The notes beneath the pieces are model-generated. The model ran no database searches, was not told the DNA's origin, and saw nothing but the letters and a program-made list of their open reading frames with translations. Position numbers and translations under genes: made by a program. A DNA stretch of 64,000 nucleotides from an uncultured bacterium (GTDB lineage Bacteria > Actinomycetota > Actinomycetes > S36-B12). The first letter of the stretch is position 1. Each line of letters begins with the position of its first letter. Below are positions 23,512 through 39,075 of the stretch, piece by piece. The stretch lies in contig CAWBZB010000004.1 of assembly GCA_963793105.1 (NCBI GenBank), positions 156,210-220,209 of the forward strand, given 5' to 3'.

Positions 23512-25091
23512 ATGACCACGACAGGAATGAACGTACGCAACGACGCCGTGAGCAACGCGGAGTGGCGGAGCCTGATCGACCGATTCGAATCGGGAGAACT
23601 CCAGGGCCCGATCCTCAACATCGACGAGGACTCGGACGTCGAGTACGACGCCATCTTCGTCGGCGGTGGAGCCGGTGGAAGATTTGGTTCCGCCTATCTC
23701 AGGGCGCGGGGCGGCCGGCAGCTACCGTCGACCGCTGGCCCTTCCTGGGCGGCTCGTGTCCGCATCAGGCCTGCGTCCCCCACCACCTGTTCTCGGAATC
23801 GGCGCGCGAACTGGACCTCGCGCGCATCCTGTCGGGCCGGCTGTGGTTCCCGGAGTTCGACGAATCGCGTGCGTCGATTCTCGACCTGGTCGAGCTGTTC
23901 AAGTCCGGCCGGAATAGCGCGCATGCCTTCATGAACTACCAGAGCAAGGAACAGCTGGGGATGGAGTACATCCTCAATGCCTCTGCCACGGTCATCGATG
24001 CCCACACCGTCGAGGTGGCCGGGCGCCGGTTCACCGCGAAGAACCTCGTGCTGGGCACTGGCGCGAGCACGGTGCCGCTCGACGTCCCGGGGATCGACCT
24101 CCCGGGAGTATTCGACTACGCGACCCTCATCGAGGATCTCGACTACGACCCGAAGTCGTGCGTGATCATCGGCGGGTCGAAGGTCGCGATCGAGTACGGC
24201 TCCTTCTTCCAGGCAGCCGGCTGCCAGACCACGATCCTCACGCGCAGCCCGCTGATGACGACGAAGAGCCTGCATCATGTGGACGAGGACGTACGGCAGT
24301 ACGTGGTGAGGGGAATGCGCGATCGGGGCATGTCGATCCTGGAGGGCGCCCATCCGATCGCCGTCGTCGGCACCAACCGGGCCACCGGCGTGACCGTGCG
24401 GCTTGCCGACGGGTCCACCGTGGATCTGCCGTGCGACATGGTCTTCATTGGTACGGGCGAGAGGGCGAACTCCGACCACTATGTCGATGTGCTCGGGGTC
24501 GCCGTCGATGATCGCGGGTCCATCGTCGTCGACGATCACATGCGCACGTCCGTCCCGAACGTCTATGCCGTGGGTGACCTCATCGGCCCCCCGATGGAGA
24601 TGTTCAAGGCTCGTAAGTGCGGGATGACGGCGGCTCGGAACATCATGGGCGAGGACTATTCGTTCGATTTCACCGAGTACCCGGATTTCCTGCATTCGAC
24701 CTACGAGGTCACGTGGGTCGGCTTGTCGGAGGCCGAGGCCCGGGCAACGTTCGAAGACGTCATCGTGATCCAGATGCCGCCACCCGGCGTTCCCCACGGA
24801 GACATCCCGCTGCCGTGCGCCGAGGGCACGATGCTCCTCGCGTTCACTCACCCGGAGAAGACCGGGTTCCAGAAGGCGATCTTCGACGCCAAGAGCCGCA
24901 AGCTGGTCGGAATTCACCATGTCGGCTTCGGGGCCAAGGACTCGTTCCAGTATCTGGACTTCCTCATCCACCGAACTGAGGGACTCACCATCGACGAACT
25001 GGCGGAGATGAACGAACTCTTCCTCAACTCGGGCCACTTCATCCAGTTGTCCCGGCTTCGCGCCGGCGCCATGGAGCTCAGCTCGCTGTAG
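23512..25091 (+). pseudogene. xecC: 2-oxopropyl-CoM reductase (carboxylating), 2-KPCC homologue; one frameshift at ~23721-23726
   Basis: N-terminus in ORF 23437..23934: MTTTGMNVRNDAVSNAEW...YDAIFVGGGAGGRFGSAYLRARGGRQL. The rest is in ORF 23412..25091: TVDRWPFLGGSCPHQACVPHHLF ... VPNVYAVGDLIGPPMEMFKARK ... ELFLNSGHFIQLSRLRAG. It is near-collinear with my recollection of Xanthobacter 2-KPCC, including CxxxxC and the Phe...His replacement of the DSOR His-Glu dyad. Confidence 0.85.
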
Positions 25092-26602
25092 CCCCATCGG
25101 TTGCCAGGGACCGGGCCACGTCAAGGAGCGATGCTCTCGAAGCGTTGTTGGCTGCTCGGCGCTCGACGCGCCAGGCGTCCTCGACCGCAACGAGGGCGCG
25201 AAGAGAGGCGATCTCGTCGCGCACCGCCTGTGGGGCGCATCCGCCAGCCTCGCGTCGAGACGCCACGAGCGTGGCGGGGTCGAGAACGGCTGCCACATCG
25301 AAGGTCGAGCCGGGGTCCGGCATGGCAGAGCCAGTGACGATCCGGGCGGCATCGTCGAGCGATGCCGCCGTGATCCCGCTCGCGTCCTCGAGTGAACGCG
25401 CGACGGCACGCCCCACCACGCGGTAGGCGGTCCGGTAGTCCAGGCCGACACGGAGGACCAGTTCGTCCGCCAGATCGGTGGCGGCGATCTGCTCGTCCTG
25501 AGCGGAACGGGACAGTGCTGAGGTGTCGATGGCGATCGTGCGGATCACTGCCGTCGCCAGTTCGACGATGCGACGTGACAGCACCAGGGACGACGAAACC
25601 TCGCCATACGTGTGCAGCCAGTTGTCCGTCTGCGCCGAGGGTGTCCTTGCAGTGGCCATGAGACCGGTGAGACGCCCGATCAGAGTGCTTGCGCCCGAGC
25701 GGATCACGGCCAGCGCGTACGGGTTGCGCTTCTGCGGCATGAGGACGGACGCCCGGCAGAGGGAGGCGTCCAGGGTGACGAAGCCGAAGGCAGGGCTCGC
25801 GAAGATCTGGAGGTCCTCGGCCAGCCGGTCCGCCGTCAGGGCGGCCTGAACGGCCGCGGCGACCACGTCGATCAGCCCGTCCAGATTCCACATTGTGTCG
25901 CGGGTGTTGCGCCCGACCGCAGCGAAGCCGAGGAGCTCGGCCAGGCCGTCGCGGTCCAGCCCGAGGCGCGTGCCGCCCACGCCCCCCGAGCCGGCGGGCG
26001 AGATGTTCGACCGACGAGTAGCACTGGCGCAGGCGGGGCAGGTCGCGGCCCGCCTCCTCGGCGAACGAGGCGATGTAGTGCCCGAAGGTGGAGGGCTGCG
26101 CCGGCTGCAGGTAGGTCATGTCCGCCCAGAGCGCATCGGCGGTCTCGTCGGCGCAGTCGGCCAGCGCCTGCGTGAAGTCCGAGGTGGCCTGCGCCAAGTC
26201 GAGGATCAACTCCCGGGTGGCGATTCGGAAGGCGATGCGGCCGGCCTCACGCCGAGTCCGACCGAGGTGGACCCAGCCGGCCAGGTCGCCGACTCGCCTG
26301 GTGAGCTCCTTCTCTCGGCTGTTGTAGGCGTCACCGAGCATGACGTCATAGGGGAACTCCTCGACCGGGACAGCGCCGAGCTCGAGAAGGGCAGCGAGAA
26401 GCGTCGGGGCGCGCTCAGCCGGCAGCAGCTCCTGTCGGGCGAGCGTGATGACATGTGCGAGGTCGGCGAGCGTGAGGCCGTCGTGCAGCAGCGGGGCGTC
26501 GCTGAGCTCAAGGGCGTATCCGGCGGCCACCATCTCCGGCGCCGGCCCCGACGAGATCCTGCCGTCGGTACCCAGGTAGCCCTCGGGCGTTGGCGCGCTC
26601 AC
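25078..26602 (-). pseudogene. aspartase/fumarase-superfamily lyase (argininosuccinate-lyase-like), CoM-biosynthesis type; one frameshift at ~26007-26012
   Basis: GTG 26602 follows aaggaggtg and overlaps the upstream stop (GTGA). The N-terminal half reads in the frame of ORF 25121..27460 (VSAPTPEGYLGT...TYLQPAQPSTFGHY...QCYSSV). The C-terminal half is ORF 25078..25980 (NISPAGSGGVGGTRLGLDR...SVLMPQKRNPYAL). Confidence 0.8.
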
Positions 26603-27578
26603 AAGCCACCTCCTTGTGCGAACAGCGTAGGGGCCCCGCCAGTGACGAGGAAGACTGTCGGCCCGCGCTGAGCTCCCGTCCGGGCCTGCGCCAGCAAGGC
26701 TGCCATGGCCTTGGCCCCGAACACGGGGTCGAGGATGACCGCCTCCCTGCCGGCGACGAGATCCGCAGCAGAACGGCCCTCGTCCGAGGCGATGCCGTAC
26801 CCGGGACCGATCCAGCCGTCGACCACCTCCACCGCGGTCCGCGGCGGGGCCTGGATCCCGAGCAGGGCAGCCGTCCCTGAGGCGAGGTCGTAGACCCGGG
26901 TGCGGCACTCCGCGACGGGTCGGCTCACGGTGACGCCGACGACACGGGACAGCATGTCGGCGCCCACGGCCGCGACGAGCCCTGCCTGCGTGCCGCAGGA
27001 CCCGGTTCCGAGCCATACCGTGGGTTTCTCGATCCGCCACCTCGCGACACTGGGCGTCCAGCTCCGTGGCGGCGGCAAAGTAGCCGAGGCTGCCGCGGGC
27101 GGTCGCCCCCCCTCGGGGGAGCACGAGGGGGCGTCGACCCTGCGCACGAAGGCGATCAGCGGTCTCCTCGATCAGCTGGTCGACCGACGCACGGTCCTTC
27201 GTTCCGGTCCACCTGATGCGGGCGGCGGTCCACTCGTGCAGTAGCAGGTTGCCGCGCGCCGCCTCGGGTGCGCTCCCGTACAAGCAGAGCTCCCGACTCC
27301 AGGCCGCATCGGCGGGCCGCCAGCGCCGCGAGCAGGGCCCAGTTCGACTGCGGCCCCGAGCCCGTGACGAGGACATCGCAGCCGTCCTCCATCGCCGCGC
27401 CGAGCAGGAACTCCAATGCTCGGACCTTGTTGCCGCCGAGACCCACGGCGGTGAGGTCATCGCGCTTGAGCCAGATCGGGATCCCGGCGGCCGCCGAGAG
27501 CCGGGGCGCCTCCTGCAGAGGCGTCGGGAACAGGCCCAACGTCACCCGCGGGATCCGATCCAGGACGCCGTCAGGCAT
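26599..27578 (-). pseudogene. PLP-dependent enzyme of the ACC-deaminase/D-cysteine-desulfhydrase family; two frameshifts
   Basis: Fragment 1 (frame of ORF 27156..27980): MPDGVLDRIPRVTLGLFPTPLQ...WLKRDDLTAVGLGGNKVRALEFLL, with the PLP Lys. Fragment 2 (frame of ORF 25121..27460): ELCLYGSAPEAARGNLLLHEW...GGATARGSLGYFAAATELDAQ. Fragment 3 (ORF 26599..27147): IEKPTVWLGTGSCGTQAGL...VFLVTGGAPTLF. Junctions at ~27292-27294 (extra g in a G-run) and ~27040-27050. Confidence 0.8.
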
Positions 27579-28912
27579 GGTCGGGATCGAGAACGCTGTC
27601 AATGAAACGAGAAATAGATCCCAAGGCGTTCCGCGGATCCAGCAGCCTGTCGATCTCCTCGTCGTCGAGGTCCGCCAGGCGAGCGTCTGCGCGAAGTGCG
27701 GAACGAAGGTCGACGTCAGCCTCGCGACCGGCGAGCGCTGCCTCGTACACGATGCGGTGCGCGGTGTGTTTCCCCACTCGATCGGCCAGTGCGCGCATGA
27801 CCGGCTCGGACATGACGTAGCCGCGTTGGGCTTCGAGGTTGCGGCGCATCCGCTCCGCGTCGACCTCGAGGCCGTCGAGGATCCTGACCGCGGCCGCGAC
27901 GCTGACGCCTGCGTAGAGGCATGCCTCGGGAAGCAGGACCCACTCGGACTTCCAGGATCGCCCGTCGCGCTCGTGGCCATGGATCATCGCCTGTGTGGCG
28001 AGATCAGCATCGGCGCGAACGAAACGCGCCAGGCTGCCGACATGCTCGGACAGCTCGGGATTGCGCTTGTGGGGCATCGTGATGCTGCCCACCGTGCCTG
28101 GAGTCAGCGGCTCGCGCAGCTCCCCGATCTCGGACCGCTGGAGCTCGTAGACCTCGTCTCCGATCTTGGCGACCGTGGCCGTGATCATCGCGAGCAGGCT
28201 GACGAACTCGGCGAGGCCGTCACGTGCGGTGAGCCACGGGATCAGCGGACGCCCAGGCCGAAGCCGCCGCGCGAACGAGGCGAGCATGGGTTCGGCTCGA
28301 TCACCCCAGAACTCCATGGATCCCAGCCCGCCGCCCAGTTCGACGAGCTCACGCCGCGGACGGCCCTGCTCCAGCCGTTCGAGGTGCCGGTCGATCTCAG
28401 CGGTCCAGACGGCCGTCTTGAAGCCGAACGTGATGGGCAGGCCGGGCTGACCGTGCGTGCGTCCACACATGATGGTGTCGCGGTGCACCCGCGTGAGGTC
28501 CGCGGCCGCGGCCCGCGCCCGGCGAAGGTCTCGTTGATGATGTCGCGACCCTGCGCATGGCCAGCGCGGACCAGGTGTCGGTGAGGTCCTGAACTGTGGC
28601 ACCGTAGTGACCCACTCGCGGGCCTCCTCCGGAGTCGCGCTCGAACAGCCGGATGAGCCCGAGGGTCGAGTGTCCGGTCATGCGGGTCAGCTCGCCGACC
28701 TCGTTCGGGTCCGGCTGCCAGGCCTGGATCGTGCTCCGGATGGCCCCAGCGGCCGGGGCGGGAACGAGCCCAACCTCAGCCTGCGCCTCGGCGAGTGTCG
28801 CAAGGGATCCGAGCCAGGCGCTCAGTCGACCCTCGTCGGTGAACATCGCGTGGATCTCCGGCGTGGACCAGAGATGGCCGTAGATGGCGGAGTCGACGAG
28901 GTGGGCGCTCAT
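27571..28912 (-). pseudogene. second aspartase/fumarase-superfamily lyase (adenylosuccinate-lyase/carboxymuconate-cycloisomerase-like); at least one frameshift at ~28523-28550
   Basis: N-terminus MSAHLVDSAIYGHLWSTPEIHAMF...GATVQDLTDTWSALAMRRV is in ORF 28397..29119. The rest is in ORF 27571..28602: RARAAAADLTRVHRDTIMCGRTHGQPGLPITFGFK ... GSITMPHKRNPELSE. ATG 28912 overlaps the upstream stop (ATGA). Confidence 0.8.
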
Positions 28913-29837
28913 CTGCGGGCAGCGGTCCCGATGCCCGCAGGTTCCACGACGGGCCCGACCCCCGTCAGCAGCCGGAGGGCCAACCTGACCTCGTCGAGGG
29001 TCGACCCCCACGGAACGACGGCACTGTCTCCGTCGCGCTCGACGCCACGTTCGAGCAGGCAGCACTTGGTCAGCACCAGCGTGCCATGCTCGATCTCCGC
29101 TGCTCGGCGGTTCGGGCACAGGTCCACCTGAGGCGGCTGGTCGCCGTAGAAGTGTCGGTGGAACTGCAACGCAGCGCTCGCACCCGATCAGCGTCCAGTC
29201 CTCGCGGCGCTCAGGTCGGGTGTCGAGGAAGGAGACCTCGCCGGGCAGACCACGCCTGAGCCGCGGCAGGGAAGCAGGTAGCCCGCGGCAGGGTGGTCCC
29301 GTGCCATGAGACGTATGTCCACGGCGTCGAGCACGAGATCTATCGGCGGCAGCTCGTCATCGAATTCGAGGGCCTGCCTTGCCATCTCAAGCAGCTTGGC
29401 CGGTTCCGGCGGGACCACCTCGGTGACGACGATGCGCACGGGCAACGGCCGCCAGATGACGTTGACGTGCTCGTACCTGCCTTTGACCGCATACGCATCG
29501 ACATCGTCACGGCCGAGCGCCCGGCCGCGGCCGCCAGGGCGGTTGCGTTGCCGACGTCGGTGCTCGCGTCCTCGATCCATGCCGTGCGATCCGGTGCCGC
29601 GAGAACACGTGCCTCCGTGACCGGCGAGAAGAGCGGCTCGAAGGACTCCTTGAGCACTGCCACGAGGGCGTGGTCGTCGCCGTTGGCGAGGAGCAGCCAC
29701 TCAGTGCGCCGGTAGACCTCGCGGCCGATCAGGTACTCAAGGATCGCCGACTCGTCAGCCAAGGGGATCTCGACCTCCTGCATCGACAGGCCGCGGTAGG
29801 GGCGAGTGATGCTGTTGGGAGGCGGGGTCGGGATCAC
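28909..29837 (-). pseudogene. unrecognised Cys-rich protein embedded in the CoM biosynthesis operon; about three frame disruptions including an in-frame TGA at 29188-29190
   Basis: Fragments are ORF 29340..29837 (GTG start, MIPTPPPN...EYLIGREVYRRTEWLLLANGDDHALVAV...), ORF 29188..29700 (...VDAYAVKGRYEHVNVIWRPLPVRIVVTEVVPPEPAKLLEMARQALEFDDELPPIDLVLDAV...) and ORF 28909..29169 (FHRHFYGDQPPQVDLCPNRRAAEIEHGTLVLTKCCLLERG...). A high-GC3 alternative frame, LPGEVSFLDTRPERREDWTLIGCERC, bridges the last two. The stop overlaps the next ATG (ATGA). Confidence 0.55.
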
Positions 29838-29850
29838 TCGTCAGATCCTG

Positions 29851-30627
29851 TCACGTGAGGGTGGCGAGTCGGGCCACGGAGGCCGTGTCGGCACGCAGGC
29901 CCAGGCGCAGCGTCTCGAGGGGCAGCACCTCGTCCGGAGGGATGTTCCCGAGATTCACCTCGGGCCCGATCGTGCGCACGAACCAGGCCTGCTGGGCCTT
30001 GTGGGGCGCCTCGAAGATGATGCGATCGACAGGAATCCGACTGGTGAGCGTGTCGATGAGCGTGTCACGTACCGCTCCGTCCCCGAGGTAGATGCCGACG
30101 TTGCCGCTCTCGCGGCCCTCGGCGATCACCCACTGAGCACCCGCCTGCAGATCGGACTCCATCTCGGCGAGCCACTCCGCGGGAACCACAGGAGTGGCGG
30201 CATCCTTCGAGCCCACTTCAGCGGCGACCACGAAGTCCTCGCTGAGCGTGCGGATCAGCTCCTCCTTGCGGGCGGCATCAAGGGCGCCGAGACCGTTGGA
30301 CACCTCCACGGCGGTGATGCCACTGGCCAGGGCCCAGTCGCGCAGCTCCCCGATCCGGCCCTGCGCCGCCGCGATCTCGAGCAGGGTGCCCCCGAGGCTC
30401 ACCAGCACGCCGGCCTCGCGATACGCCGTCACGCGTTCGAACAGGCGAGGATCGACATAGCCGATACCCCACCCGATCTTGACGATGTCGATGAGCCCCG
30501 CCGTGCTCTCAAGGTGGTCCCGCGTGGAAGCCAACCCCAGGCCCTTGTCCAGCACATGCGTGAGTCCCCTGGTCCGGGGCTTGGACTGGCGGGGTGGCAG
30601 CTCGAAGGTACGTCGGTGGGCCCACAT
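29851..30627 (-). CDS. comA: phosphosulfolactate synthase (ComA family; PEP + sulfite), first step of CoM biosynthesis
   Basis: ORF 29851..30627, intact. ATG follows aaggaga. THVLDKGLG...IDIVKIGWGIGYV...VSLGGTLLE...VEVSNG pattern of the ComA (PF02679) family. Confidence 0.85.
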   Translation of the reverse strand: MWAHRRTFELPPRQSKPRTRGLTHVLDKGLGLASTRDHLESTAGLIDIVKIGWGIGYVDPRLFERVTAYREAGVLVSLGGTLLEIAAAQGRIGELRDWALASGITAVEVSNGLGALDAARKEELIRTLSEDFVVAAEVGSKDAATPVVPAEWLAEMESDLQAGAQWVIAEGRESGNVGIYLGDGAVRDTLIDTLTSRIPVDRIIFEAPHKAQQAWFVRTIGPEVNLGNIPPDEVLPLETLRLGLRADTASVARLATLT

Positions 30628-30790: not shown

Positions 30791-32128
30791 GTGGCGGACA
30801 GGCTGGTCGTGGTGGGTGGTGGCGCGGCCGGTATGTCCGCGGCGTCGGCGGCCCGCCGAACGGATCCCGCCCGTGAGATCACGGTTCTGGAGTCCGGACC
30901 CTTCCCGTCCTACGGGGTCTGCGGCATCCCCTACTACATCAGCGGGGTCGTTCCCGATCCGATGGCGCTGGTCTCGCATCCCGCCGAGGAGTTCCGGGAC
31001 CGCCGGCGCATCGACCTGAGACTGGAGACGTCGATCGCGTCCATCGACCTCACAGGGCAGGTGGTGACCACCGCGGCTGGGGAGCCGCTCGGATTCGACA
31101 CCCTGGTCCTCGCGCTCGGAGCCCGACCGATCGTGCCGCCCATCCCCCGGGTCGATCATCCGCGGGTCGTGACCATCAGACGCCTGGACGATGCGATCGC
31201 GCTGCGGGGAATCCTGGGAGACGTGCGTCGTGCGGTCGTGATCGGAGCTGGCTACGTGGGGCTCGAGATGGCCGAGTCGCTCTGCGCGGCCGGCATACAG
31301 GTGACCGTGGCCGATCGCCTGCCCCGGGTCATGTCGACCCTTGACGTCGAGGTCGCCGAGATCGTCGAAGAAGAGGTGCGTCGGCACGCCGAACTGATGC
31401 TTTCCAGTTCCCTGATTGCTGTTCACGACCGTGGCGAGGGTCTGACCGTCGAGTTCGCGGATCGATCCGTCGACGCCGACCTCGTCGTCCTCGCACTCGG
31501 TGTACAGCCGCAGACCGACCTCGTCCGCGGGCAGGTGGAGATGACACCCGCCGGAGCGATCCTCGTGAATCGGACGATGAGCACCTCCGTGCCTGGAGTC
31601 TTCGCCGCTGGCGACTGTGTCGCGCTCGAGCACCGGGTCCTGAGGGCACCGGCGTACGTTCCTCTCGGTCCGGCGGCGAACAAGACGGGCCGGGTGGCGG
31701 GCACGGTTGCCGCCGGTGGCTCGGCGACGTTCGGCGGAATCGTGGGCACCGCGGTCGCGAAGGTGTTCGACCTCACGGTCGCGCACACGGGGCTGACGCT
31801 CGCCGATGCGCGCGCGGCCGGCCTGTCGGCCATGGCGACGGACGTGACGGCCAAGTCGCGAGCCAAGTACTACCCGGGGACCGAGCCCGTCCGGGTGCGA
31901 CTTGTGCACACGGAGGCCGGGCGGGTCCTCGGTGCGCAGATGGTCGGCCGCGATGGAGTCGCCCAGCGGATCGACGTGATCGCAACGGCCCTGCACGGCG
32001 AGATGACCATCGATGACATCGCTGCGCTGGATCTCGCCTACGCCCCCCCGTTCTCCCCCGTGTACGACCCCATCACCCAGGCCGCGTCCGCCGCTCAGTG
32101 GGCCATGGCCAAGGCCGGAGCCACATGA
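30791..32128 (+). CDS. CoA-disulfide-reductase/NADH-oxidase-family flavoprotein with a single redox Cys
   Basis: ORF 30791..32128. GTG follows aaggagga. VVVGGGAAG FAD motif, SYGVCGIPYY active-site Cys motif (CoADR/Npx type), second Rossmann VVIGAGYVGLE. Confidence 0.8.
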   Translation: MADRLVVVGGGAAGMSAASAARRTDPAREITVLESGPFPSYGVCGIPYYISGVVPDPMALVSHPAEEFRDRRRIDLRLETSIASIDLTGQVVTTAAGEPLGFDTLVLALGARPIVPPIPRVDHPRVVTIRRLDDAIALRGILGDVRRAVVIGAGYVGLEMAESLCAAGIQVTVADRLPRVMSTLDVEVAEIVEEEVRRHAELMLSSSLIAVHDRGEGLTVEFADRSVDADLVVLALGVQPQTDLVRGQVEMTPAGAILVNRTMSTSVPGVFAAGDCVALEHRVLRAPAYVPLGPAANKTGRVAGTVAAGGSATFGGIVGTAVAKVFDLTVAHTGLTLADARAAGLSAMATDVTAKSRAKYYPGTEPVRVRLVHTEAGRVLGAQMVGRDGVAQRIDVIATALHGEMTIDDIAALDLAYAPPFSPVYDPITQAASAAQWAMAKAGAT

Positions 32129-32847
32129 ACCGAGTTGCGATCGTCACGGGCGCCGGCAGCGGCATCGGCCGCGCGAGCAGCCTGCGACTGCAGAAAGACG
32201 GCATGACCGTGATCTCCCTCGACATCGACGTCGACGCTGCCGCGGAGGTGTCGCCTCACGCCTTGGCGCTGGACGTCTCCGATGCCGCACAGGTGGCCGA
32301 CGTCATGGCCGAGGTCCTCCACCGGTGGCCGCGCATCGATGTCCTCGTGAACAACGCGGGGATCACCGGGTCCGCGCAGGCGACAACGGCGCACGTCACG
32401 CCGATTGAGGAGTTCGACCGGGTCATGGCGGTGAACGTCCGCGGACCGTTCCTCTGCTCTCGTGCGGTGCTGGCGTCGATGATCGACGCGGGTGGCGGCC
32501 ACATCATCACGATTGCCTCGGCCGCGGGGATCGTCGCCTTCCCGGGTCGCTGCGCCTACACGACGTCCAAGGGCGCAGCCGTGCAGCTCGCGCGGTCGAT
32601 CGCCGTGGACTACGGCCGTATGGGCATCCGCTCCAACGCGATCTGCCCGGGGATGGTCGAGACCCCGATGACGCAGTGGCGTCTCGACCAGCCGGATCTG
32701 CGCGATCGCACCGAGAGCCAGATCCCCATGGGCCGGGTCGCCAGCCCCGACGAGATCGCCGACGTCGTCTCCGTCCTTGCATCAGGCCGAATGGGGTACG
32801 CCAACGGCGCCGCCCTGGTCATTGACGGCGGCTGGACCGCCTGGTGA
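32125..32847 (+). CDS. short-chain dehydrogenase/reductase, 2-hydroxypropyl-CoM dehydrogenase-like
   Basis: In ORF 32098..32847. ATG 32125 overlaps the upstream stop (ATGA). Begins MNRVAIVTGAGSGIG. NNAG motif and catalytic YTTSK. Confidence 0.75.
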   Translation: MNRVAIVTGAGSGIGRASSLRLQKDGMTVISLDIDVDAAAEVSPHALALDVSDAAQVADVMAEVLHRWPRIDVLVNNAGITGSAQATTAHVTPIEEFDRVMAVNVRGPFLCSRAVLASMIDAGGGHIITIASAAGIVAFPGRCAYTTSKGAAVQLARSIAVDYGRMGIRSNAICPGMVETPMTQWRLDQPDLRDRTESQIPMGRVASPDEIADVVSVLASGRMGYANGAALVIDGGWTAW

Positions 32848-32873
32848 CCACCACTCCAACGAAGGGAACCCCC

Positions 32874-33647
32874 ATGGCAGGCAGGCTCGAAGGCAAAGTC
32901 GCAATGATCACTGGAGCAGGATCCGGGATCGGCCGCGCGACCGCGGAACTCTTCGCACAGGAGGGAGCAGCCGTCGGGGTGCTCGACATCCGCGCCGACG
33001 CTGCCGGTGAGGTCGCCGCCGCAATCAGCGCCGCGGGCGGGCGGGCGATCGGCCTCGGGGCCGACGTGACCAAGGACGACCAGGTGCGGGCCGCTGGGAA
33101 CGAGGTGATCGCGACGTTCGGGGACATCTCCGTGCTGTACAACAACGCGGGGATCGGCAGCACCGGGGCAGTCGACGTCGCCGAGGAGGAGGACTGGGAT
33201 CGCTGCTTCGACATCAATGTCAAGGGCACCTTCCTGTGCTCCCGGGCGGTCGTGCCATCGATGCTGGCCGCCGGCGGAGGCTCGATCATCAACCAGGGCT
33301 CGGTGGCCGCCCTGGTGGGCGTCGCGAACTTCGCCGCGTACTGCGCCGCCAAGGGCGCCGTGGTTGCGCTCACCCGCTCGATGTCCGTCGACCTCGCCCC
33401 TCGTGGCATTCGCGTCAACGCGATCGCTCCGGGAACCGTCTACACGCCGCTGATGGAGCCGATGCTCACCGCTCGAGGCGGCGGCGACCTCGAGAAGGGT
33501 TTGGCGATGACCGTCGCCAAGTACCCGATCGGCCGACTCGGAAACCCTGAGGACATCGCGGCGGCGGCGCTCTTCCTGGCCAGCGACGAGGCAGCATTCG
33601 TGACCGGAGCGGTCCTCACGGCCGACGGCGGCATGACGACTCAGTAG
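32874..33647 (+). CDS. second short-chain dehydrogenase/reductase, 2-hydroxypropyl-CoM dehydrogenase-like paralogue
   Basis: In ORF 32844..33647. ATG 32874 follows aaggga and gives MAGRLEGKVAMITGAGSGIG. The alternative GTG 32844 overlaps the upstream stop. NNAG motif and catalytic YCAAK. Confidence 0.75.
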   Translation: MAGRLEGKVAMITGAGSGIGRATAELFAQEGAAVGVLDIRADAAGEVAAAISAAGGRAIGLGADVTKDDQVRAAGNEVIATFGDISVLYNNAGIGSTGAVDVAEEEDWDRCFDINVKGTFLCSRAVVPSMLAAGGGSIINQGSVAALVGVANFAAYCAAKGAVVALTRSMSVDLAPRGIRVNAIAPGTVYTPLMEPMLTARGGGDLEKGLAMTVAKYPIGRLGNPEDIAAAALFLASDEAAFVTGAVLTADGGMTTQ

Positions 33648-33657
33648 GGAGTACCCC

Positions 33658-34569
33658 ATGTTCCTCGACCCCGACAAGCGCGTCGACCTCGCGGCGGCGG
33701 CCGGCCATGTCCGCGACGGTGCCATCGTCGCCCTCGGCGGAGGACTCTCCGCCAGGCTGCCGATGGCCCTCGTGCGCGAGATGATCCGTCAAGGCCGACG
33801 CGACCTCCACGTCGTCGGCTCCGCCCACGGCATCGACGTCGACATGCTCATCGGTGCGGGCGCGATCGCGATCTGCGAGGAGAGCTACGTAGGCTTCGAG
33901 CAGGACTTCGGACTGGCGCCCGCGTACCGGCGGGCGGCGAGTGCCGGCACGATCACGCTCCGGGAGAGCTGCTGCGTCACAATCCTCACCCAGCTGAGGG
34001 CCGCGGAGATGGGCCTGCCGTTCCTCCCGGTGAGAGGCATCATGGGCACGGACATGAGGCGCCTTCACCCTGAATACGCACAGACCACCTGTCCCTTCAC
34101 CGGGGAGGTCCTCGTCGCTGTACCACCGCTGGCTCCCGACGTCGCACTCCTGCACGCGCCGATGGGCGACATGCACGGCAACCTGCACCTCGAGCAGCCC
34201 TACGTGCTCGACGAGAGGTTCGCGGGCGCGTCCCGGGCCGTGGTGGCCACAGTCGACCGGATCGTGTCCGCGGACACGCTGGCCGAGGCCGGGGTCACCA
34301 TCCCGGGCTACCTGGTCCAGGCGGTCGCGGAGGTTCCGTACGGGGCCCATCCGGCATCCTGCTATCCCGGCTATGCCTACGATCGCGAGCATGTGGGGGC
34401 GTACGTGGCAGCCGCCAGCAGCGACGAGTCGATCGGCGAGTACCTGCGCGAGTGGGTACTCCTGCCTGATGGCGAGGTCGGATACCGGGCGAAGGTCGGC
34501 GAGGCGAGTCTCGCCCGCATCGCCGGCTGGTCGGAGTCCATCAACGCATGGAAGGGGCTCTTCGCATGA
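33658..34569 (+). CDS. CoA-transferase subunit A (glutaconate-CoA-transferase GctA-like)
   Basis: ORF 33658..34569. ATG follows agggag. DGAIVALGGGLSARLPMALVREMIRQG...HVVGSAHG pattern of family I CoA-transferase alpha subunits. Confidence 0.75.
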   Translation: MFLDPDKRVDLAAAAGHVRDGAIVALGGGLSARLPMALVREMIRQGRRDLHVVGSAHGIDVDMLIGAGAIAICEESYVGFEQDFGLAPAYRRAASAGTITLRESCCVTILTQLRAAEMGLPFLPVRGIMGTDMRRLHPEYAQTTCPFTGEVLVAVPPLAPDVALLHAPMGDMHGNLHLEQPYVLDERFAGASRAVVATVDRIVSADTLAEAGVTIPGYLVQAVAEVPYGAHPASCYPGYAYDREHVGAYVAAASSDESIGEYLREWVLLPDGEVGYRAKVGEASLARIAGWSESINAWKGLFA

Positions 34570-35396
34570 CGTACACGCTGGACGAGTGGTTCGTCGTCGC
34601 GCTCTCGCGCACGATCCGCGACAGGGAGTCGGTCTTCCATGGGTTCGGCAGTCCGTGCGCCCAAGTGGCGATGCACGTGGCGAAGCGGACGCACGCTCGG
34701 GACATGCTGCTCATCGAGGGAGCGATGTACGCCCTCAACCCGGATCCCCCGTTCATCCCTCCAACGGGGAACGATGCGAGCCTGAAGCGGGGCGCTGCCT
34801 ACAGCATGCGTTTCGAGGAGTTCTTCGATGCCGCCATCCGAGGGGACATCGACCGGATGTTCCTGTCCGGCGGCCAGATCGACGCCTACGGCAACACCAA
34901 CGTGACAGTCATCGGGCCGCTCGAGCGCCCCAAGGTCAAGCTCGGTGGCGGAGGCGGCGGATGCAACATCTCGGCGACCATCCGCCGACTCACGTTGTGG
35001 ACCACCCGGCACCGGTCGGGTCGCACCCTGGTGGATGCCTGCGACTTCATCACAGACATCGGGCACCGGACGCCGGCCGGAACACGAGCCGAGCTCGGCT
35101 ATACCGGCGGCGGACCGCAGTGGCTGGTCACAGAGCTCGGCGTGTTCGACTACGACGCCGATGGTCGCGCGCGCCTGCTGCAGGTGTTCCCCGACGTGAC
35201 CGTCGACCTGATCAGGTCCGTGACGGGCTTCGACTTCACCGTGGTGGGGGATCTCCGCACGGTGCCGCCGCCTAGCGATGCCGAGCTTGCCGTGGTCCGC
35301 AGCATCGATCCACTCGGCGTGCGCCGGGGCGAGTTCGACGCGGGCGAGCTGGCCCGCACGTTCGAGCATGCGCACGGGGCCACCTGCGGCTGCTGA
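34566..35396 (+). CDS. CoA-transferase subunit B (GctB-like)
   Basis: In ORF 34548..35396. ATG 34566 overlaps the subunit A stop (ATGA). Begins MTYTLDEWFVVALSR. FLSGGQIDAYGNTN motif typical of beta subunits. Confidence 0.75.
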   Translation: MTYTLDEWFVVALSRTIRDRESVFHGFGSPCAQVAMHVAKRTHARDMLLIEGAMYALNPDPPFIPPTGNDASLKRGAAYSMRFEEFFDAAIRGDIDRMFLSGGQIDAYGNTNVTVIGPLERPKVKLGGGGGGCNISATIRRLTLWTTRHRSGRTLVDACDFITDIGHRTPAGTRAELGYTGGGPQWLVTELGVFDYDADGRARLLQVFPDVTVDLIRSVTGFDFTVVGDLRTVPPPSDAELAVVRSIDPLGVRRGEFDAGELARTFEHAHGATCGC

Positions 35397-35397
35397 G

Positions 35398-37479
35398 ATG
35401 AGCAGCCAGCGCTCGCTTCGCGCGATCTTCGAGCCACGCCGGGTGGCTGTCGTCGGGGCGTCGGAGCGGGCAGGCAGCCCCGGTGCCGTGATCTGGGGCA
35501 ACCTCGCACAGTTCCCGGGCGAGGTGGTGCCCGTCAGCCGCACGTCACAGACCGTCGACGGCCGACTCGCGTACGCGTCCCTGCGGGCAGTACCCGGCAC
35601 GATCGACCTCGCCGTGGTCGCGGTGCCCGCTGCGGCGGCGCTGCAGGTGGTGGAGGACGCCGTGGCCGCCGGAGTGCGAGCCATCGTGCTCGTGAGCGCC
35701 GGCTTTGCAGAGGCGGGCCCGGCCGGCGTCATCCTGCAGGACGAGATCGTTCGCACGGCGCGCGCGGGTGGCGTCCTCCTGGTCGGTCCCAACTGCCTGG
35801 GCGTGCAGAACTGCGACGTGCCGCTGAACGCCTCGCTCGCCTCTGGCATGACCGGTGGCCGCGGTGGCATCAGCCTCATCACGCAGTCCGGCTCCTACGC
35901 GATGGCCGTTCATGCGATGTCCTCGGAAGAGGGTCTGGGTTTCGCCATCGCCTACTCGTCGGGCAACCGGGCCGATATCGACGATGCGGAGGTCCTCGAC
36001 TACCTGCGGGAACACGACCGCACCGATGTGGTCTGCGTGTTCACGGAGTCGTTGGGAGATGGACGCGCCTTCCTCGATGCCGCCCGTCGGACGACGTGCG
36101 CGAAGCCCGTCATCGTCGCTGCGGTCGGGAGGTCCGAAGCTGGGGCGCGCGCTGCCGCGTCGCACACCGCCGCCCTGGCCGCGGACCGGCGCGCGTGGAA
36201 CGACCTCCTTCGCGGCGCGGGTATCACCGTCGCGAGTTCGGGGATCGAGATGCTCGATGCGGCGCGAGTGCTTCAGGACCAGGCGCCGCCAACTGGGCGC
36301 CGGGCCGCGATCATCACCAACTCCGGCGGCACGGGAACGGAACTGGCCGATCTCCTGGCGGACGAGGGAGTGGTCCTCCCGGAGTTGTCCGTGGGCCTGC
36401 GGGCCAGACTCGCCGAACTGCTGCCGGACTATGCGAGTACCTCGAACCCAGTGGACATCACTCCTGTCTGGTCGCGCTTCGCTGAGATCTATCCGGCCGT
36501 GCTCGATGTTCTCGCGAGGTCCGGCGAGGTGGATCTCGTGGTGCCGGTTCTCCTGCACCGATCCGCGGAGGATGCTGGCGTCGCGGAAGGAATCGTGCGC
36601 ACGTTCGAGTCACTGCGCAGGGATGGCGTTTCGGTACCGGTGTACGTGTGCTGGGTCGCCCGGCGATCAGCGTGGGGCATTGCCGCTTCAATGCAGCGCG
36701 CCGGAATCCCCTGCCTGGAGTGGCCGCCGCGCGCCGCCCGGGCGATCGGGCATGCGGTCCGCTACGGGGACTTCCGGCGCAGGACGCAGAGTGAGCCGCC
36801 CGAGCGGGCAGCCGTCCCCCAGCGCTCCCTGCCGCAATCCGTCGGAGTCGACGCGGAGTCGACCTACACGTTCCTGACCGAGAACGGGATTCCGATCGTC
36901 GAGACGATCTTCGTCGCGGATTCGGCTGCGGCGGTGGCTGCCGCGCGACGTGTCGGCTACCCGGTGGCTCTCAAGGTCGATCATCCGGATCTCTCGCACA
37001 AGAGCGATGTCGGCGGCGTTCGCCTCGACCTCGCGAACGACGCTGCGGTCAGCGACGCGGCGTCGGCGCTCCTCGCCGTCGCGCCCGCTACCCGACTCGT
37101 GGTGCAGCCCATGTCGACTGGGGTGGAGGTGGTGATCGGGGGCATTCGCGAGCCGACCTTCGGGCCGGTCGTCGTGTTCGGGCTCGGCGGTGTGCTGGTG
37201 GAGCTCATCGCCGATGTCCGCTTCGCCGCCGCTCCGCTCACGACGTCTGAGTCCGCGAGTCTGGTGAGGGCGCCGAGGGGCGCCGCGATCCTCGCAGGAG
37301 TACGTGGGAGATCGCCCACAGACCTGGGGGCCCTGGCCGCGACGGCGCGCGCGGTGGGTGACCTCATGGCCGCGTACCCGGAGCTGCTTGAGTTGGACCT
37401 CAATCCCGTCCTCGCCGGGCAGGAAACATGCACTGCCGTGGACTTCCGGGCGGTCGTAGTCCGCGCGAACCAAGCCTGA
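35398..37479 (+). CDS. ADP-forming acyl-CoA synthetase (acetate--CoA ligase family, fused alpha/beta)
   Basis: In ORF 35278..37479. ATG 35398 lies 1 nt after the upstream stop. CoA-binding N-terminus (RVAVVGASERAGSPG), succinyl-CoA-synthetase-like ligase domain and C-terminal ATP-grasp (GYPVALKV...SDVGGVRL). Confidence 0.8.
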   Translation: MSSQRSLRAIFEPRRVAVVGASERAGSPGAVIWGNLAQFPGEVVPVSRTSQTVDGRLAYASLRAVPGTIDLAVVAVPAAAALQVVEDAVAAGVRAIVLVSAGFAEAGPAGVILQDEIVRTARAGGVLLVGPNCLGVQNCDVPLNASLASGMTGGRGGISLITQSGSYAMAVHAMSSEEGLGFAIAYSSGNRADIDDAEVLDYLREHDRTDVVCVFTESLGDGRAFLDAARRTTCAKPVIVAAVGRSEAGARAAASHTAALAADRRAWNDLLRGAGITVASSGIEMLDAARVLQDQAPPTGRRAAIITNSGGTGTELADLLADEGVVLPELSVGLRARLAELLPDYASTSNPVDITPVWSRFAEIYPAVLDVLARSGEVDLVVPVLLHRSAEDAGVAEGIVRTFESLRRDGVSVPVYVCWVARRSAWGIAASMQRAGIPCLEWPPRAARAIGHAVRYGDFRRRTQSEPPERAAVPQRSLPQSVGVDAESTYTFLTENGIPIVETIFVADSAAAVAAARRVGYPVALKVDHPDLSHKSDVGGVRLDLANDAAVSDAASALLAVAPATRLVVQPMSTGVEVVIGGIREPTFGPVVVFGLGGVLVELIADVRFAAAPLTTSESASLVRAPRGAAILAGVRGRSPTDLGALAATARAVGDLMAAYPELLELDLNPVLAGQETCTAVDFRAVVVRANQA

Positions 37480-37633
37480 CCTCGTCCGCTGCTGTCAGCG
37501 AAACCACACATTTTCACCCTGCCGGGTCGGGGCTTGTCGCCACTTCTGGCCTTCGAGGGCGAGGCAGCCACGCCCGGACTGCACATACGTTTCTTGGACC
37601 ACGTTCCCGGAGTGGATCCCCTAAGGAGTCTCT

Positions 37634-38737
37634 ATGAAGGTTGGATCGAGCGACATCCTGCTGCCCACCACGATGGTCGGCAACTACCCGAACCCACGGT
37701 GGTACGACGGCCACGCGTTCGCCACGTACCCCAAGGGCGAGTTCGTCTACGACGCCATCAGTCGCGAGGCATACGAGGATGCCGTGGGCGCAATCGTCCA
37801 CGATCAGGAGTCGGCCGGACTCGACATCATCAGCGACGGCAAGGTCTACGGGGGCGACTCGCCGTACGGCCAGATCCTCTACCACTACATCGAGCGGATG
37901 TCCGGCTACAAAGCGTCGGGGCCCCCCATCGGGCTGCCCATCTACTCGACCCTGTACAGCCCGACGGCCGTGGGAGAGGTACGCCGCGAGCACCCGTTCC
38001 ATGGCGCCGCGCTGCGCGCGATGAAGAAGGCCACCAAGAAGCCGGTCAAGGTCTCCTACACCGGCATGCAGGTGCTGGCGGCCGCCAGCACGAACCAGTA
38101 CTACCCCGAGGTTCGCGACCTCGCGATCGCGATCGCGAAGGCCTTCAATGAGGACTTCAAGGAACTCGCCGACAACGGCTGCGACATCATTCAGATCGAC
38201 GAGTTCGTGTGGCCGTACGGAATGGGCGATTGGGAGATCGAGGTGTTCAACACCGCAGTCGAGGGTGTGGGATGTCAGATCTGGACCCATACCTGCTGGG
38301 GCAACTACTCCGGCACGCCAGGCTACTTCCCCGACGACGAGGAGACCGAGTTCGGCGCTTGGGTCCTCGACAAGCGGCCTGAGGACGCTCCCGCCCCCGA
38401 GCGGGCACTGGCCATCTTCCCGCACGTGAAGAACGCCAACATGACCGCACTCAATTACGAGGTGGGCCGGACCGGCGAGGATGACCTGAAGCCTCTCGTC
38501 GACAACAACTGGGACAAGGACTTCGTGGCGGGCATCATCGATGTCAAGAGCACGATCACGGAGACGGCGGACGAGGTTGCCGACCGCATCCGGATGGTCC
38601 TGAAGTACGTTCCCGCAGAGCGACTCGGTCTCAGCACGGACTGCGGTCTCATCAACCTGCCGCGCATGGTGGGCTACGGAAAGCTCCGCGCACTTGCGGA
38701 CGGTGCGGCGATCGTGCGCAAGGAACTGAACGCCTAG
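37634..38737 (+). CDS. etnE: epoxyalkane:coenzyme M transferase (MetE-C-terminal-domain zinc alkyltransferase)
   Basis: ORF 37634..38737 (367 aa). ATG follows taaggag. MetE-like barrel with Zn-ligand motifs H-x-C (IWTHTCWGN) and C (LSTDCGL). Size and N-terminus (MKVGSSDILLPTTMVGNYPNPRW) fit EaCoMT, and the context holds CoM genes. Confidence 0.8.
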   Translation: MKVGSSDILLPTTMVGNYPNPRWYDGHAFATYPKGEFVYDAISREAYEDAVGAIVHDQESAGLDIISDGKVYGGDSPYGQILYHYIERMSGYKASGPPIGLPIYSTLYSPTAVGEVRREHPFHGAALRAMKKATKKPVKVSYTGMQVLAAASTNQYYPEVRDLAIAIAKAFNEDFKELADNGCDIIQIDEFVWPYGMGDWEIEVFNTAVEGVGCQIWTHTCWGNYSGTPGYFPDDEETEFGAWVLDKRPEDAPAPERALAIFPHVKNANMTALNYEVGRTGEDDLKPLVDNNWDKDFVAGIIDVKSTITETADEVADRIRMVLKYVPAERLGLSTDCGLINLPRMVGYGKLRALADGAAIVRKELNA

Positions 38738-38757
38738 TCGCAACGGCATCACCGTTT

Positions 38758-38799
38758 CGGCTGCGGCCCGAGGGACGTGTTCCCCTCGGGCCGCAGCCG
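38758..38799 (+). terminator. hairpin terminator after etnE
   Basis: cggctgcggcccgaggg (38758-38774), loop acgtgttc, ccctcgggccgcagccg (38783-38799). Perfect 17-bp stem followed by ttcctctttgc. Confidence 0.65.
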
Positions 38800-38993
38800 T
38801 TCCTCTTTGCATCGTGTCCGACATGCCCGAGGAAGCGGCCCGCAGCAGAGCGGCCTGGGGGCAGGCAGGCGACATGACCCACGGGGGTGGACGTGGTCCA
38901 CTCAATTCGGGCGGTACCTCAGCCATCCGCGGTCATAGGTCACGATCCAGCGAGGCACAGATCACCCCCGCTCCGAAGGTCGCTAGTGACATT

Positions 38994-39030
38994 CGACTGG
39001 GCTCCACCCCCGCGGGGTGGAGCCCAGTCG
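38994..39030 (-). terminator. hairpin terminator after nrdJ
   Basis: cgactgggctccacccc / ggggtggagcccagtcg: perfect 17-bp stem with a 3-nt loop, 46 nt past the nrdJ stop at 39076. Confidence 0.55.
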
Positions 39031-39075
39031 GCGAATGCAGCGTGCCTTTCCTACGTGATCGCGTACATGTCTACA

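What the first reader, a model, noticed from the sequence alone, without database searches (positions are those of the whole stretch)
23512..25091. The 2-KPCC homologue keeps its carboxylase-specific catalytic signature despite a 1-nt deletion
- The product aligns end to end with my recollection of Xanthobacter 2-KPCC: YDAIFVGGGAGGRFGSAYLRA.GGRQL.VDRWPFLGGSCPH.ACVPHHLF ... VPNVYAVGDLIG.PMEMFKARK ... ELFLN..HFIQLSRLRAG.
- The redox pair CPHQAC is present.
- The DSOR His-Glu dyad position reads F-L-N-S-G-H-F, the Phe/His arrangement that distinguishes the carboxylating enzyme from ordinary disulfide reductases.
- The frame breaks at cag-cta-ccg (23719-23727), where QL(T/I)VDRW is expected.
- The gene is convergent with the CoM biosynthesis operon and overlaps its 3' end by 14 nt.
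Basis: partly seen in the sequence, partly recalled or inferred. Interest (0 to 1): 0.6.

Follow-up and report, generated by a model that had tools for sequence, protein, structure and literature searches.

The report
2-KPCC gene split by assembly error
This is an ordinary, well-conserved gene for the coenzyme-M-dependent CO2-fixing enzyme 2-KPCC, and the single missing base that splits it is almost certainly one of several hundred consensus errors in this metagenome-assembled genome, not a biological lesion.

Summary
23512-23724 (frame 1) plus 23724-25088 (frame 3) read as one 526-aa protein. It aligns end to end with Xanthobacter 2-KPCC (PDB 1MO9 residues 5-523, E 1e-176, 53% identity). It keeps Cys82/Cys87, Arg56/Arg365, His84/His137, Met140 and the Phe501...His506 dyad. 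One base is missing at 23723/23724, and the 14-nt convergent overlap with the CoM-biosynthesis lyase is real and conserved.

The "despite a deletion" reading does not hold.
- The break is one of about 19 window-specific 1-nt indels packed into 21.08-30.61 kb.
- A second assembly of the same strain (ENA contig L009) lacks every one of them in the part it shares with the window, and carries private indels elsewhere.
- A Logan assembly of run ERR15459714 calls PucR, xcbA, the ADSL-like lyase, ComA and most of the PLP enzyme intact.
- The broken genes show dN/dS 0.11 (KPCC 0.05) and no rate acceleration.
- The assembly has roughly 400 candidate frame switches, confirmed inside Pfam domains in RF1 and TruB, and by direct frame reading in LexA. 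An exopolysaccharide cluster has about 30 in 8 kb.

Verdict: a new member of a known family, in a known etn-type CoM island. The frameshift is an artefact. Low interest.

The parts
23512..23724 (+). N-terminal 71 codons of the 2-KPCC homologue (frame 1). They hold the FAD GxGxxG motif (VGGGAGG) and Arg57, the equivalent of Xanthobacter Arg56, at 23680-23682.
   Evidence: tblastn with the L002 KPCC: residues 1-66 at 92% identity in frame 1.
23723..23724 (+). Site of the single missing base (Leu codon ctN followed by acc). Reading base 23724 in both frames gives ...RQL-TVDRW...
   Evidence: MSA with L002-L007: the window alone has a gap here. L009 also carries the extra base.
23724..25091 (+). 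C-terminal 455 codons plus the TAG stop (frame 3). Key residues: Cys83/Cys88 (23757-59, 23772-74), His85, His138, Met141, Arg368 (24612-14), Phe504 (25020-22), His509 (25035-37).
   Evidence: (1MO9, E 7e-153). On its own contig, the only contig that carries it, this gene was called as a 386-aa product starting at Met 23931.
25078..25091 (.). 14-nt overlap between the 3' end of KPCC and the 3' end of the convergent aspartase/fumarase-family lyase, the last gene of the CoM-biosynthesis operon.
   Evidence: The same overlap is present in L002, L003, L004, L006 and L007.
25078..30627 (-). Bacterial CoM-biosynthesis operon: lyase, PLP enzyme, ADSL-like lyase, DUF7714/XcbA, ComA. The window-specific indels lie near 26006, 27036, 27292, 28246-28270, 28535, 28545, 28608, 28632-28634, 29172, 29249, 29516 and about 30605.
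   Evidence: Gene families. Pathway from PMC9457059.
19549..23476 (-). PucR-type regulator, MEDS sensor and CoA-acylating aldehyde dehydrogenase upstream of and divergent from KPCC. Window-specific deletions at about 21082, 22311 and 23297.
   Evidence: In run ERR15459714 PucR is intact (559 aa). In both ERR15459714 and ERR12037369 the ALDH C-terminus is in one frame.
30791..38737 (+). Unbroken catabolic operon: CoADR-like flavoprotein, two SDRs, CoA-transferase A/B, NDP-forming acyl-CoA synthetase, EaCoMT (84% identical to JS614 EtnE).

Best explanation
**What the gene is.** It encodes an intact, functional NADPH:2-ketoalkyl-coenzyme M oxidoreductase/carboxylase, the 2-KPCC (XecC) family. It sits in an etn-type coenzyme-M island of a 3.16-Mb, 69.5% GC actinobacterial metagenome-assembled genome.

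**What the frame break is.** The one-base gap at 23723/23724 is a consensus (assembly or polishing) error. It lies in a roughly 9.5-kb error-rich patch (21.08-30.61 kb) of an assembly that has such patches elsewhere.

**Likely mechanism, inferred from the conserved residues and the Xanthobacter enzyme.**
1. NADPH reduces FAD, which reduces the Cys83-Cys88 disulfide.
2. The substrate's sulfonate is held by Arg57 and Arg368.
3. The interchange cysteine cleaves the thioether, giving a Cys-S-S-CoM mixed disulfide and an enolate.
4. Phe504 keeps protons away from the enolate.
5. The enolate attacks CO2, and His509/Arg368 stabilise the new carboxylate.
6. The second cysteine releases CoM.

**Shown and not shown.** Shown here: the sequence identity, the residue conservation, the gene context, and the artefactual nature of the neighbouring indels. 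Inferred: that the 23723 gap is the same kind of error, the enzyme activity, and the substrate. The substrate could be 2-ketopropyl-CoM giving acetoacetate, or 2-ketoethyl-CoM giving malonate semialdehyde as proposed for ethene and vinyl chloride degraders.
For: **Identity**
- 1MO9 E 1.1e-176 over 5-523.
- 53% identical to Xanthobacter 2-KPCC and 69% to the JS614 homologue.
- R56, C82, H84, C87, H137, M140, R365, F501 and H506 are all kept.
- The roles of F501, H506 and R365 are described in PMC8358701.
- All NCBIfam DSOR equivalogs score far below their cut-offs, for example lipoamide dehydrogenase 170 bits against 409.
- Context: EaCoMT, two SDRs and the five CoM-biosynthesis genes, in the same order in L002, L004, L005, L006 and L007, where every gene is intact.

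**Artefact**
1. About 19 window-private 1-nt insertions and deletions lie in 21.08-30.61 kb. They are mixed in sign and not tied to homopolymers. None lies in the coding sequence of 30.8-35 kb.
2. L009 (ENA ERZ25039600 contig_18609) is near-identical to the window from 25.5 to 34 kb. It has the relatives' state at every window-private indel in that stretch (26006, 27036, 27292, 28246, 28261, 28535, 28545, 28608, 28632/34, 29172, 29249, 29516). It has its own private indels at other places.
3. Logan contigs of run ERR15459714 carry the window's exact MEDS and FADox proteins. They call PucR at 559 aa, xcbA at 309, the ADSL-like lyase at 448, ComA at 257, PLP at >=301 and the ALDH C-terminus at 223 aa, each in one frame.
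4. Selection: broken genes have dN/dS 0.077/0.712 = 0.11 and unbroken neighbours 0.125. KPCC is 0.048. dN to the outgroup L006 is 0.194 for the window and 0.202 for L002, so there is no acceleration.
5. My codon HMM finds about 400 candidate frame switches in the assembly, and they are strongly clumped.
6. C10:72.4-80.2 kb has about 30 switches, with whole Pfam domains (DUF4910 1-246 of 247) read across five frame segments.
7. Of 40 randomly sampled isolated candidates, 15 have one Pfam domain spanning the junction, including RF1 (PCRF), TruB, E1-beta, GcvP and urease alpha.
8. LexA in this window is split at about 44950.
9. The truncated 386-aa product called for this gene occurs on this contig only.
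Against: - **No direct test of 23723.** L009 is about 15% divergent from the window in 20.5-25.5 kb, so it is a different allele there. The Logan contigs found stop short of KPCC.
- **No exact match.** The 526-aa read-through is not on record anywhere as an exact sequence.
- **One break is reproduced.** The PucR break at about 21082 also appears in a Logan contig of run ERR12037369. Either that run fed this assembly or that break is real. Not every indel in the island is therefore proven artefactual.
- **No function test.** Enzyme activity and substrate were not tested.
Confidence: 0.88

Rival explanations
1. The one-base deletion is real, and the 2-KPCC gene is a very recent pseudogene. It would be part of a half-island (regulator, ALDH, KPCC, CoM biosynthesis) that this strain is losing while it keeps the EaCoMT operon.
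For: - The breaks are concentrated in one contiguous block and spare the EaCoMT operon.
- The PucR break is reproduced in a second assembly, Logan ERR12037369.
- No alkene monooxygenase was found in the genome, so the pathway might be dispensable.
Against: - Thirteen or more of the block's indels are absent from same-strain assemblies.
- dN/dS is 0.05 for KPCC, and the window's lineage shows no excess nonsynonymous change.
- The read-through has no nonsense codons and no larger deletions.
- The same kind of break hits RF1, LexA, TruB and an exopolysaccharide cluster at 1 per 250 bp, which natural decay does not produce.
Confidence: 0.06
2. The break reflects real heterogeneity. The metagenome holds several strains with a mosaic island, and the consensus in this patch mixes alleles. 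The written sequence would then correspond to no single cell, while broken alleles could still exist as minor variants.
For: - L009 and the window switch from about 15% divergence to near identity at about 25.3-25.5 kb.
- L002 and L004 in one assembly differ by 177 substitutions.
- The island is absent from all 24 same-genus species genomes searched, so it is accessory.
- PucR is intact in one run and broken in another.
Against: - This explains why the patch is error-prone. It does not make the 23723 gap a biological allele.
- The window's left part is a real haplotype: the exact MEDS protein and the same flanking gene order occur in two runs.
Confidence: 0.05
3. Programmed -1 ribosomal frameshifting or transcriptional slippage joins the two frames in vivo.
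For: The two frames join seamlessly into a full-length enzyme.
Against: - There is no X XXY YYZ slippery heptamer and no homopolymer at G-CTA-CCG.
- All relatives encode the protein in one frame, with an extra base at this spot.
- About 18 other random indels lie nearby.
Confidence: 0.01

Closest known systems
2-Ketopropyl-CoM oxidoreductase/carboxylase (2-KPCC, XecC) of Xanthobacter autotrophicus Py2; PDB 1MO9, 1MOK, 2C3C, 2C3D, 3Q6J, 7MGN, 7MGO
   Same: - Collinear over 519 of 523 residues, at 53% identity.
- Same N-terminal extension.
- Keeps the CxxxxC redox pair, Arg56/Arg365, His84/His137, Met140 and the Phe501-His506 dyad.
- Encoded next to EaCoMT, SDR dehydrogenases and the xcb-type CoM-biosynthesis genes.
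   Different: - Actinobacterial host.
- The island has etn-type neighbours: a CoA-acylating ALDH, a CoA-transferase, an NDP-forming acyl-CoA synthetase, and MEDS/PucR regulators.
- No alkene monooxygenase was found in the genome.
- The substrate may be the C2 rather than the C3 ketoalkyl-CoM.
2-KPCC homologue of Nocardioides sp. JS614 plasmid pNOCA01 (WP_041545979.1, NOCA_RS00610), the 'CoM reductase/carboxylase' of ethene and vinyl chloride degraders
   Same: - 69% identity and the same signature residues (ELFLNPDHF).
- The same set of island genes; the EaCoMT is 84% identical.
- A role in 2-ketoethyl-CoM carboxylation is proposed in PMC8727900.
   Different: - The JS614 island is on a plasmid, duplicated, and linked to etnABCD.
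- Here the island is chromosomal and single-copy, lies next to nrdJ, nrdR and lexA, and has no etnABC.
Uncultured-actinobacterial homologues (P0002 96%, P0003 95%, P0004 87%, the last annotated 'Candidatus Nanopelagicales bacterium')
   Same: Same gene order from cysH to the CoA-transferase, and the same 14-nt convergent overlap.
   Different: Their KPCC genes are in one frame. DNA identity to the window is only about 82%, with dS about 0.7.
Canonical disulfide oxidoreductases (dihydrolipoamide dehydrogenase, glutathione reductase, MerA, mycothione reductase)
   Same: FAD/NADPH two-dinucleotide-binding fold, the CxxxxC pair and the dimerisation domain.
   Different: - They carry a His-Glu dyad where this protein has Phe-His.
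- They have no sulfonate-binding arginines and no N-terminal extension.
- PDB E-values are 1e-30 or weaker, and all NCBIfam equivalogs are below cut-off.

Membership tests
2-KPCC (carboxylating 2-oxopropyl-CoM reductase) subfamily of DSORs | Full-length collinearity with the solved enzyme, including the N-terminal extension that other DSORs lack | tested here: met
   The read-through aligns 7-526 to 1MO9 5-523, E 1.1e-176. The next DSOR scores E 5e-30.
2-KPCC subfamily | Redox-active Cys82/Cys87 (CxxxxC) | tested here: met
   CPHQAC: Cys83 and Cys88 at 23757-23774. Invariant in 123 of 123 family members.
2-KPCC subfamily | Phe501-His506 in place of the DSOR His-Glu catalytic dyad | tested here: met
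   ELFLNSGHF: Phe504 and His509. The dyad's roles are described in PMC8358701.
2-KPCC subfamily | CoM-sulfonate-binding Arg56 and Arg365 | tested here: met
   Arg57 (GGRFGS) and Arg368 (KARK). Present in 122 and 123 of 123 members. Assigning them to sulfonate binding rests on the 1MO9 literature as I recall it. PMC8358701 places Arg365 in the anion pocket.
2-KPCC subfamily | Enolate-stabilising His137 and His84, and Met140 | tested here: met
   His138, His85 and Met141 are conserved. Their roles are from my own knowledge of the structural papers and were not re-read here.
2-KPCC subfamily | Genomic association with EaCoMT, hydroxyalkyl-CoM dehydrogenases and CoM biosynthesis | tested here: met
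   EaCoMT at 37634-38737 (84% to JS614 EtnE). Two SDRs at 32125-33644. ComA, DUF7714, two lyases and a PLP enzyme at 25078-30627.
2-KPCC subfamily | An uninterrupted reading frame | tested here: inconclusive
   The frame is broken in the assembly at 23723. Neighbouring breaks are shown to be assembly errors. This site itself could not be checked against same-strain sequence or reads.
2-KPCC subfamily | NADPH- and CO2-dependent cleavage of 2-ketopropyl-CoM to acetoacetate plus CoM | not testable with these tools
   Needs an enzyme assay.
Dihydrolipoamide dehydrogenase / glutathione reductase / MerA / mycothione reductase | A score above the curated equivalog cut-off, and a His-Glu dyad | tested here: not met
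   The best hit is TIGR01350 at 169.9 bits against a cut-off of 408.8. The dyad is Phe-His.

The most novel reading that the evidence does not exclude
A small-genome, uncultured actinobacterium of a Nanopelagicales-like order carries a complete chromosomal CoM island (EaCoMT, 2-KPCC, CoM biosynthesis). It has no alkene monooxygenase of its own: neither an SDIMO nor a copper monooxygenase was detected in a 96%-complete genome. Its 2-KPCC would then serve to scavenge and carboxylate epoxides made by other organisms or abiotically. That would be a CO2-fixing epoxide-cross-feeding lifestyle in a genus whose other 24 species genomes lack the gene. This reading concerns the island rather than the frame break.
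Probability: 0.25. Interest if true: 0.4.

Novelty: new member of a known kind. Interest (0 to 1): 0.1.

Why it matters
- **Annotation hygiene.** The deposited record carries this gene only as a 386-aa fragment, and seven neighbouring genes are split. Anyone mining this MAG for CoM or alkene metabolism, or counting pseudogenes, would be misled.
- **The signature was predictable.** An intact carboxylase signature is what this family shows almost universally.
- **The modest biological point.** Etn-type CoM islands, with a strongly constrained 2-KPCC (dN/dS about 0.05), occur sporadically in uncultured small-genome actinobacteria, and here apparently without a linked alkene monooxygenase.

Tried and rejected
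- **Second copy in the assembly.** I looked for one because it could explain poor polishing. There is none.
- **Exact look-up of the read-through and possible gene calls.** I tried the 526-aa read-through and seven alternative gene calls. Only the 386-aa call exists, and only on this contig.
- **Look-up of the window's 258-aa ComA.** Not on record. The likely reason is a window-private extra base at about 30605 in its first codons.
- **Pattern scan of JGI metagenome contigs across the break.** With or without the extra base, there were 0 hits.
- **P0128.** This 165-aa cluster member briefly looked like the window's 165-aa frameshifted N-terminal ORF seen on 24 contigs. It is a C-terminal fragment of another allele, so I rejected it.
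- **Codon HMM limits.** It has false positives, for example 11631/11830 inside one continuous 655-aa ORF. It found only about half of the known island breaks. Its count of 400 is therefore an order of magnitude, not a census.
- **Monooxygenase searches.** The Pfam PF02332 and PF02461 searches of the own genome found nothing, but their controls did not ring either. The monooxygenase absence rests mainly on tblastn with JS614 EtnA, EtnB and EtnC.
- **Programmed frameshifting.** Considered and rejected, because there is no slippery site.
- **Homopolymer-linked errors.** Considered, but the indel contexts are not homopolymer-biased.

Full report
**1. What is in the sequence**

ATG 23512 opens a frame that reads MTTTGMNVRND...YDAIFVGGGAGGRFGSAYLRARGGRQL. 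It then degenerates (PSTAGPSWAARV...) and stops at 23934. A second frame, one base behind, reads TVDRWPFLGGSCPHQACVPHHLFSE... from 23724 to a TAG at 25089-25091.

- The C-terminal 455 residues alone hit Xanthobacter 2-KPCC (PDB 1MO9) at E 7e-153. The next disulfide oxidoreductase scores 5e-30.
- Joined at 23724, the 526-aa read-through aligns 7-526 to residues 5-523 of the 523-residue enzyme (E 1.1e-176). Identity is 53%.
- Identity to the Nocardioides JS614 plasmid homologue is 69%.
- The minus-strand lyase ends at 25078, so the 14-nt convergent overlap is real. It is conserved in five related loci.

**2. The catalytic signature**

I aligned the read-through with the 1MO9 sequence, the JS614 protein and 120 database homologues. 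The window's protein keeps Arg56, Cys82, His84, Cys87, His137, Met140, Arg365, Phe501 and His506. In window numbering these are R57, C83, H85, C88, H138, M141, R368, F504 and H509, with codon coordinates.

Almost everything else in the family keeps them too: 118-123 of 123 sequences at each site.

Prussia et al. (PMC8358701) show what the dyad does.
- Phe501 shields the enolate from protons. F501H gives about 90% acetone.
- His506, together with Arg365, forms the anion pocket for the carboxylate product.

No NCBIfam model exists for 2-KPCC, and every DSOR equivalog is far below its cut-off. On every sequence criterion I could test, this is a member of the 2-KPCC subfamily.

**3. The frame break is one of many**

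tblastn with proteins of the JS614 island, and of the closer locus L002, shows frame changes in seven genes: PucR, ALDH, KPCC, the terminal lyase, the PLP enzyme, the ADSL-like lyase and xcbA. The stretches 16.6-21.0 kb and 30.8-38.7 kb are unbroken.

In a DNA alignment with four intact relatives, the window alone has 1-nt gaps or extra bases at these sites:
- 21082, 22311, 23297 and 23723 (the KPCC site)
- 26006, 27036 and 27292
- 28248/28270
- 28535, 28544 and 28608, plus a 2-nt gap at 28632
- 29172/29249
- near 30609

The L009 comparison in section 4 adds one more, at 29516.

Insertions and deletions are mixed, and the contexts are not homopolymers.

**4. Independent assemblies of the same strain do not share the breaks**

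Exact look-ups of the window's unbroken MEDS and CoADR-like proteins found three other assemblies.

*L009 (ENA ERZ25039600 contig_18609).* It is near-identical to the window from about 25.5 to 34 kb. Most 500-nt bins there show 0-7 mismatches, rising to 15-23 between 27.5 and 29 kb. At every window-private indel in that stretch it has the state seen in all relatives. It carries its own private indels elsewhere: 26673, 27106, 27583, 29696 and 33882. Two assemblies of one strain with non-overlapping indels is the signature of random consensus error.

*Logan contigs of run ERR15459714.* They call PucR at 559 aa, xcbA at 309, the ADSL-like lyase at 448, ComA at 257, the PLP enzyme at >=301 and the ALDH C-terminus at 223 aa, each in one frame. 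With the window's 22311 deletion, that ALDH frame would hit a stop after 51 codons.

*A caveat.* A Logan contig of run ERR12037369 has the window's 494-aa PucR. Either that run fed this assembly or that one break is real.

**5. No sign of relaxed selection**

| Comparison (Nei-Gojobori) | Value |
|---|---|
| Seven broken genes, window vs L002, dN/dS | 0.077/0.712 = 0.11 |
| Five unbroken neighbours, dN/dS | 0.125 |
| KPCC alone, dN/dS (lowest of all) | 0.048 |
| dN to outgroup L006, window | 0.194 |
| dN to outgroup L006, L002 | 0.202 |

If about 16 neutral indels had really accumulated, I would expect on the order of a hundred or more accompanying substitutions. That would add 0.015-0.04 to dN in this lineage. 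This expectation is my own inference from typical indel-to-substitution ratios. The observed difference is slightly negative. The read-throughs contain no nonsense codons and no larger deletions.

**6. The assembly has this problem genome-wide, in patches**

I trained a seven-state codon HMM on the genome's own long ORFs. It calls about 400 same-strand frame switches that have no stop codon at the junction. They are strongly over-dispersed: several 10-kb bins hold 7-22 switches, against a mean of 1.2.

- The worst patch is C10:72.4-80.2 kb, an exopolysaccharide cluster. Its read-through gives full-length Pfam domains spanning up to five frame segments, for example DUF4910 1-246 of 247 at E 8e-95.
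- Of 40 randomly chosen isolated candidates, 15 have a single Pfam domain spanning the junction. These include release factor 1 (PVT motif, broken in the AGEG|EESALFAG region), TruB, pyruvate dehydrogenase E1-beta, GcvP, urease alpha and a P-type ATPase.
- In this window, LexA is split between its DNA-binding and peptidase halves at about 44950.
- Earlier notes on other windows of this genome report the same thing.

A free-living bacterium with RF1 and LexA broken, and an island decaying only by random single-base indels, is far less plausible than an imperfectly polished MAG. The related MAG locus L003 also shows three private indels relative to its near-twin L002.

**7. Why this patch?**

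L009 and the window switch from about 15% divergence to near identity at about 25.3-25.5 kb. None of 24 same-genus species genomes has the gene, and one same-order genome does, at 88%. The island is therefore accessory and mosaic among co-occurring strains. That is the situation in which coverage and polishing fail. This step is inference.

**8. What remains unproven**

No same-strain sequence spans 23723. I put about 0.88 on artefact for this particular base.

**9. Function and context**

The island matches the etn-type CoM clusters of ethene and vinyl chloride degraders. It holds MEDS/PucR regulators, a CoA-acylating ALDH, KPCC, the five-gene bacterial CoM pathway (PMC9457059), a CoADR-like flavoprotein, two SDRs, a CoA-transferase, an NDP-forming acyl-CoA synthetase and an EaCoMT 84% identical to JS614 EtnE.

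- The literature proposes that the homologue carboxylates 2-ketoethyl-CoM to malonate semialdehyde (PMC8727900). The Xanthobacter enzyme makes acetoacetate from 2-ketopropyl-CoM. Sequence cannot decide which applies here.
- No EtnA, EtnB or EtnC homologue is present in this 96%-complete genome. The island ends at EaCoMT, next to nrdJ, nrdR and lexA.
- CoM-epoxide clusters without a dedicated alkene monooxygenase have a precedent in methanotrophs (PMC11507031).

**10. Verdict**

This is a new member of a known enzyme family, in a known kind of island. The frame break is an assembly artefact, and interest is low.

Noticed in passing
window 44540-45250: lexA is split by a single-base frame change at about 44950. 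The LexA_DNA_bind domain is in one frame, and the S24 peptidase body (GDSM...) is in the next.
   Followed up: partly
genome contig C10:72400-80200 (outside the window): An exopolysaccharide/heptose-type cluster (NTP-transferase, HAD phosphatase, GHMP kinase, SIS, DUF4910, methyltransferase, Bac_transf) has about 30 frame switches in 8 kb. Full Pfam domains are readable only across frames.
   Followed up: yes
genome contig C4:~452600 (outside the window): Peptide chain release factor 1 (PVT motif) has a frame break in the middle of its PCRF domain. TruB (C4:~253760), E1-beta (C8:~410258), GcvP (C5:~64901) and urease alpha (C4:~506224) are broken in the same way.
   Followed up: partly
window 21082-21084: The PucR regulator's frame break (494-aa product) is reproduced in a Logan contig of run ERR12037369. 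A contig of run ERR15459714 carrying the identical MEDS protein has the intact 559-aa PucR. This is either a real polymorphism or a shared-read artefact.
   Followed up: partly
window ~25300-25500; L009: ENA contig L009 is about 15% divergent from the window to the left of the convergent KPCC/lyase junction and near-identical to the right of it. Either the island is mosaic among co-occurring strains or one of the contigs is chimeric.
   Followed up: partly
whole genome; window 37634-42490: tblastn found no EtnA, EtnB or EtnC (SDIMO), and Pfam found no AmoA-type monooxygenase, in a 96%-complete genome. The CoM island ends at EaCoMT and abuts the core genes nrdJ and nrdR.
   Followed up: partly
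The genome search relatives (G001-G040): None of 24 same-genus species genomes carries a 2-KPCC homologue. One same-order genome (G032, 88% identity) does. The island is a rare accessory trait in this lineage.
   Followed up: no
window ~30605-30609: The window has a private extra base in the first codons of comA. This probably explains why the window's 258-aa ComA is not on record while the same-strain Logan contig has a 257-aa ComA.
   Followed up: partly
L003 (GCA_942491545.1) versus L002: A related MAG differs from a near-identical ENA contig by 74 substitutions and 4 single-base indels. Three of the indels split PucR, ALDH and an SDR. Other MAGs of this clade have the same kind of frame breaks in the same island.
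   Followed up: partly
protein cluster of P0002 (P0128, P0131): Truncated 165-aa and 179-aa C-terminal gene calls of a closely related KPCC allele occur on 24 and 4 contigs (Logan, ENA). Fragmented calls of this gene appear common in public assemblies.
   Followed up: no
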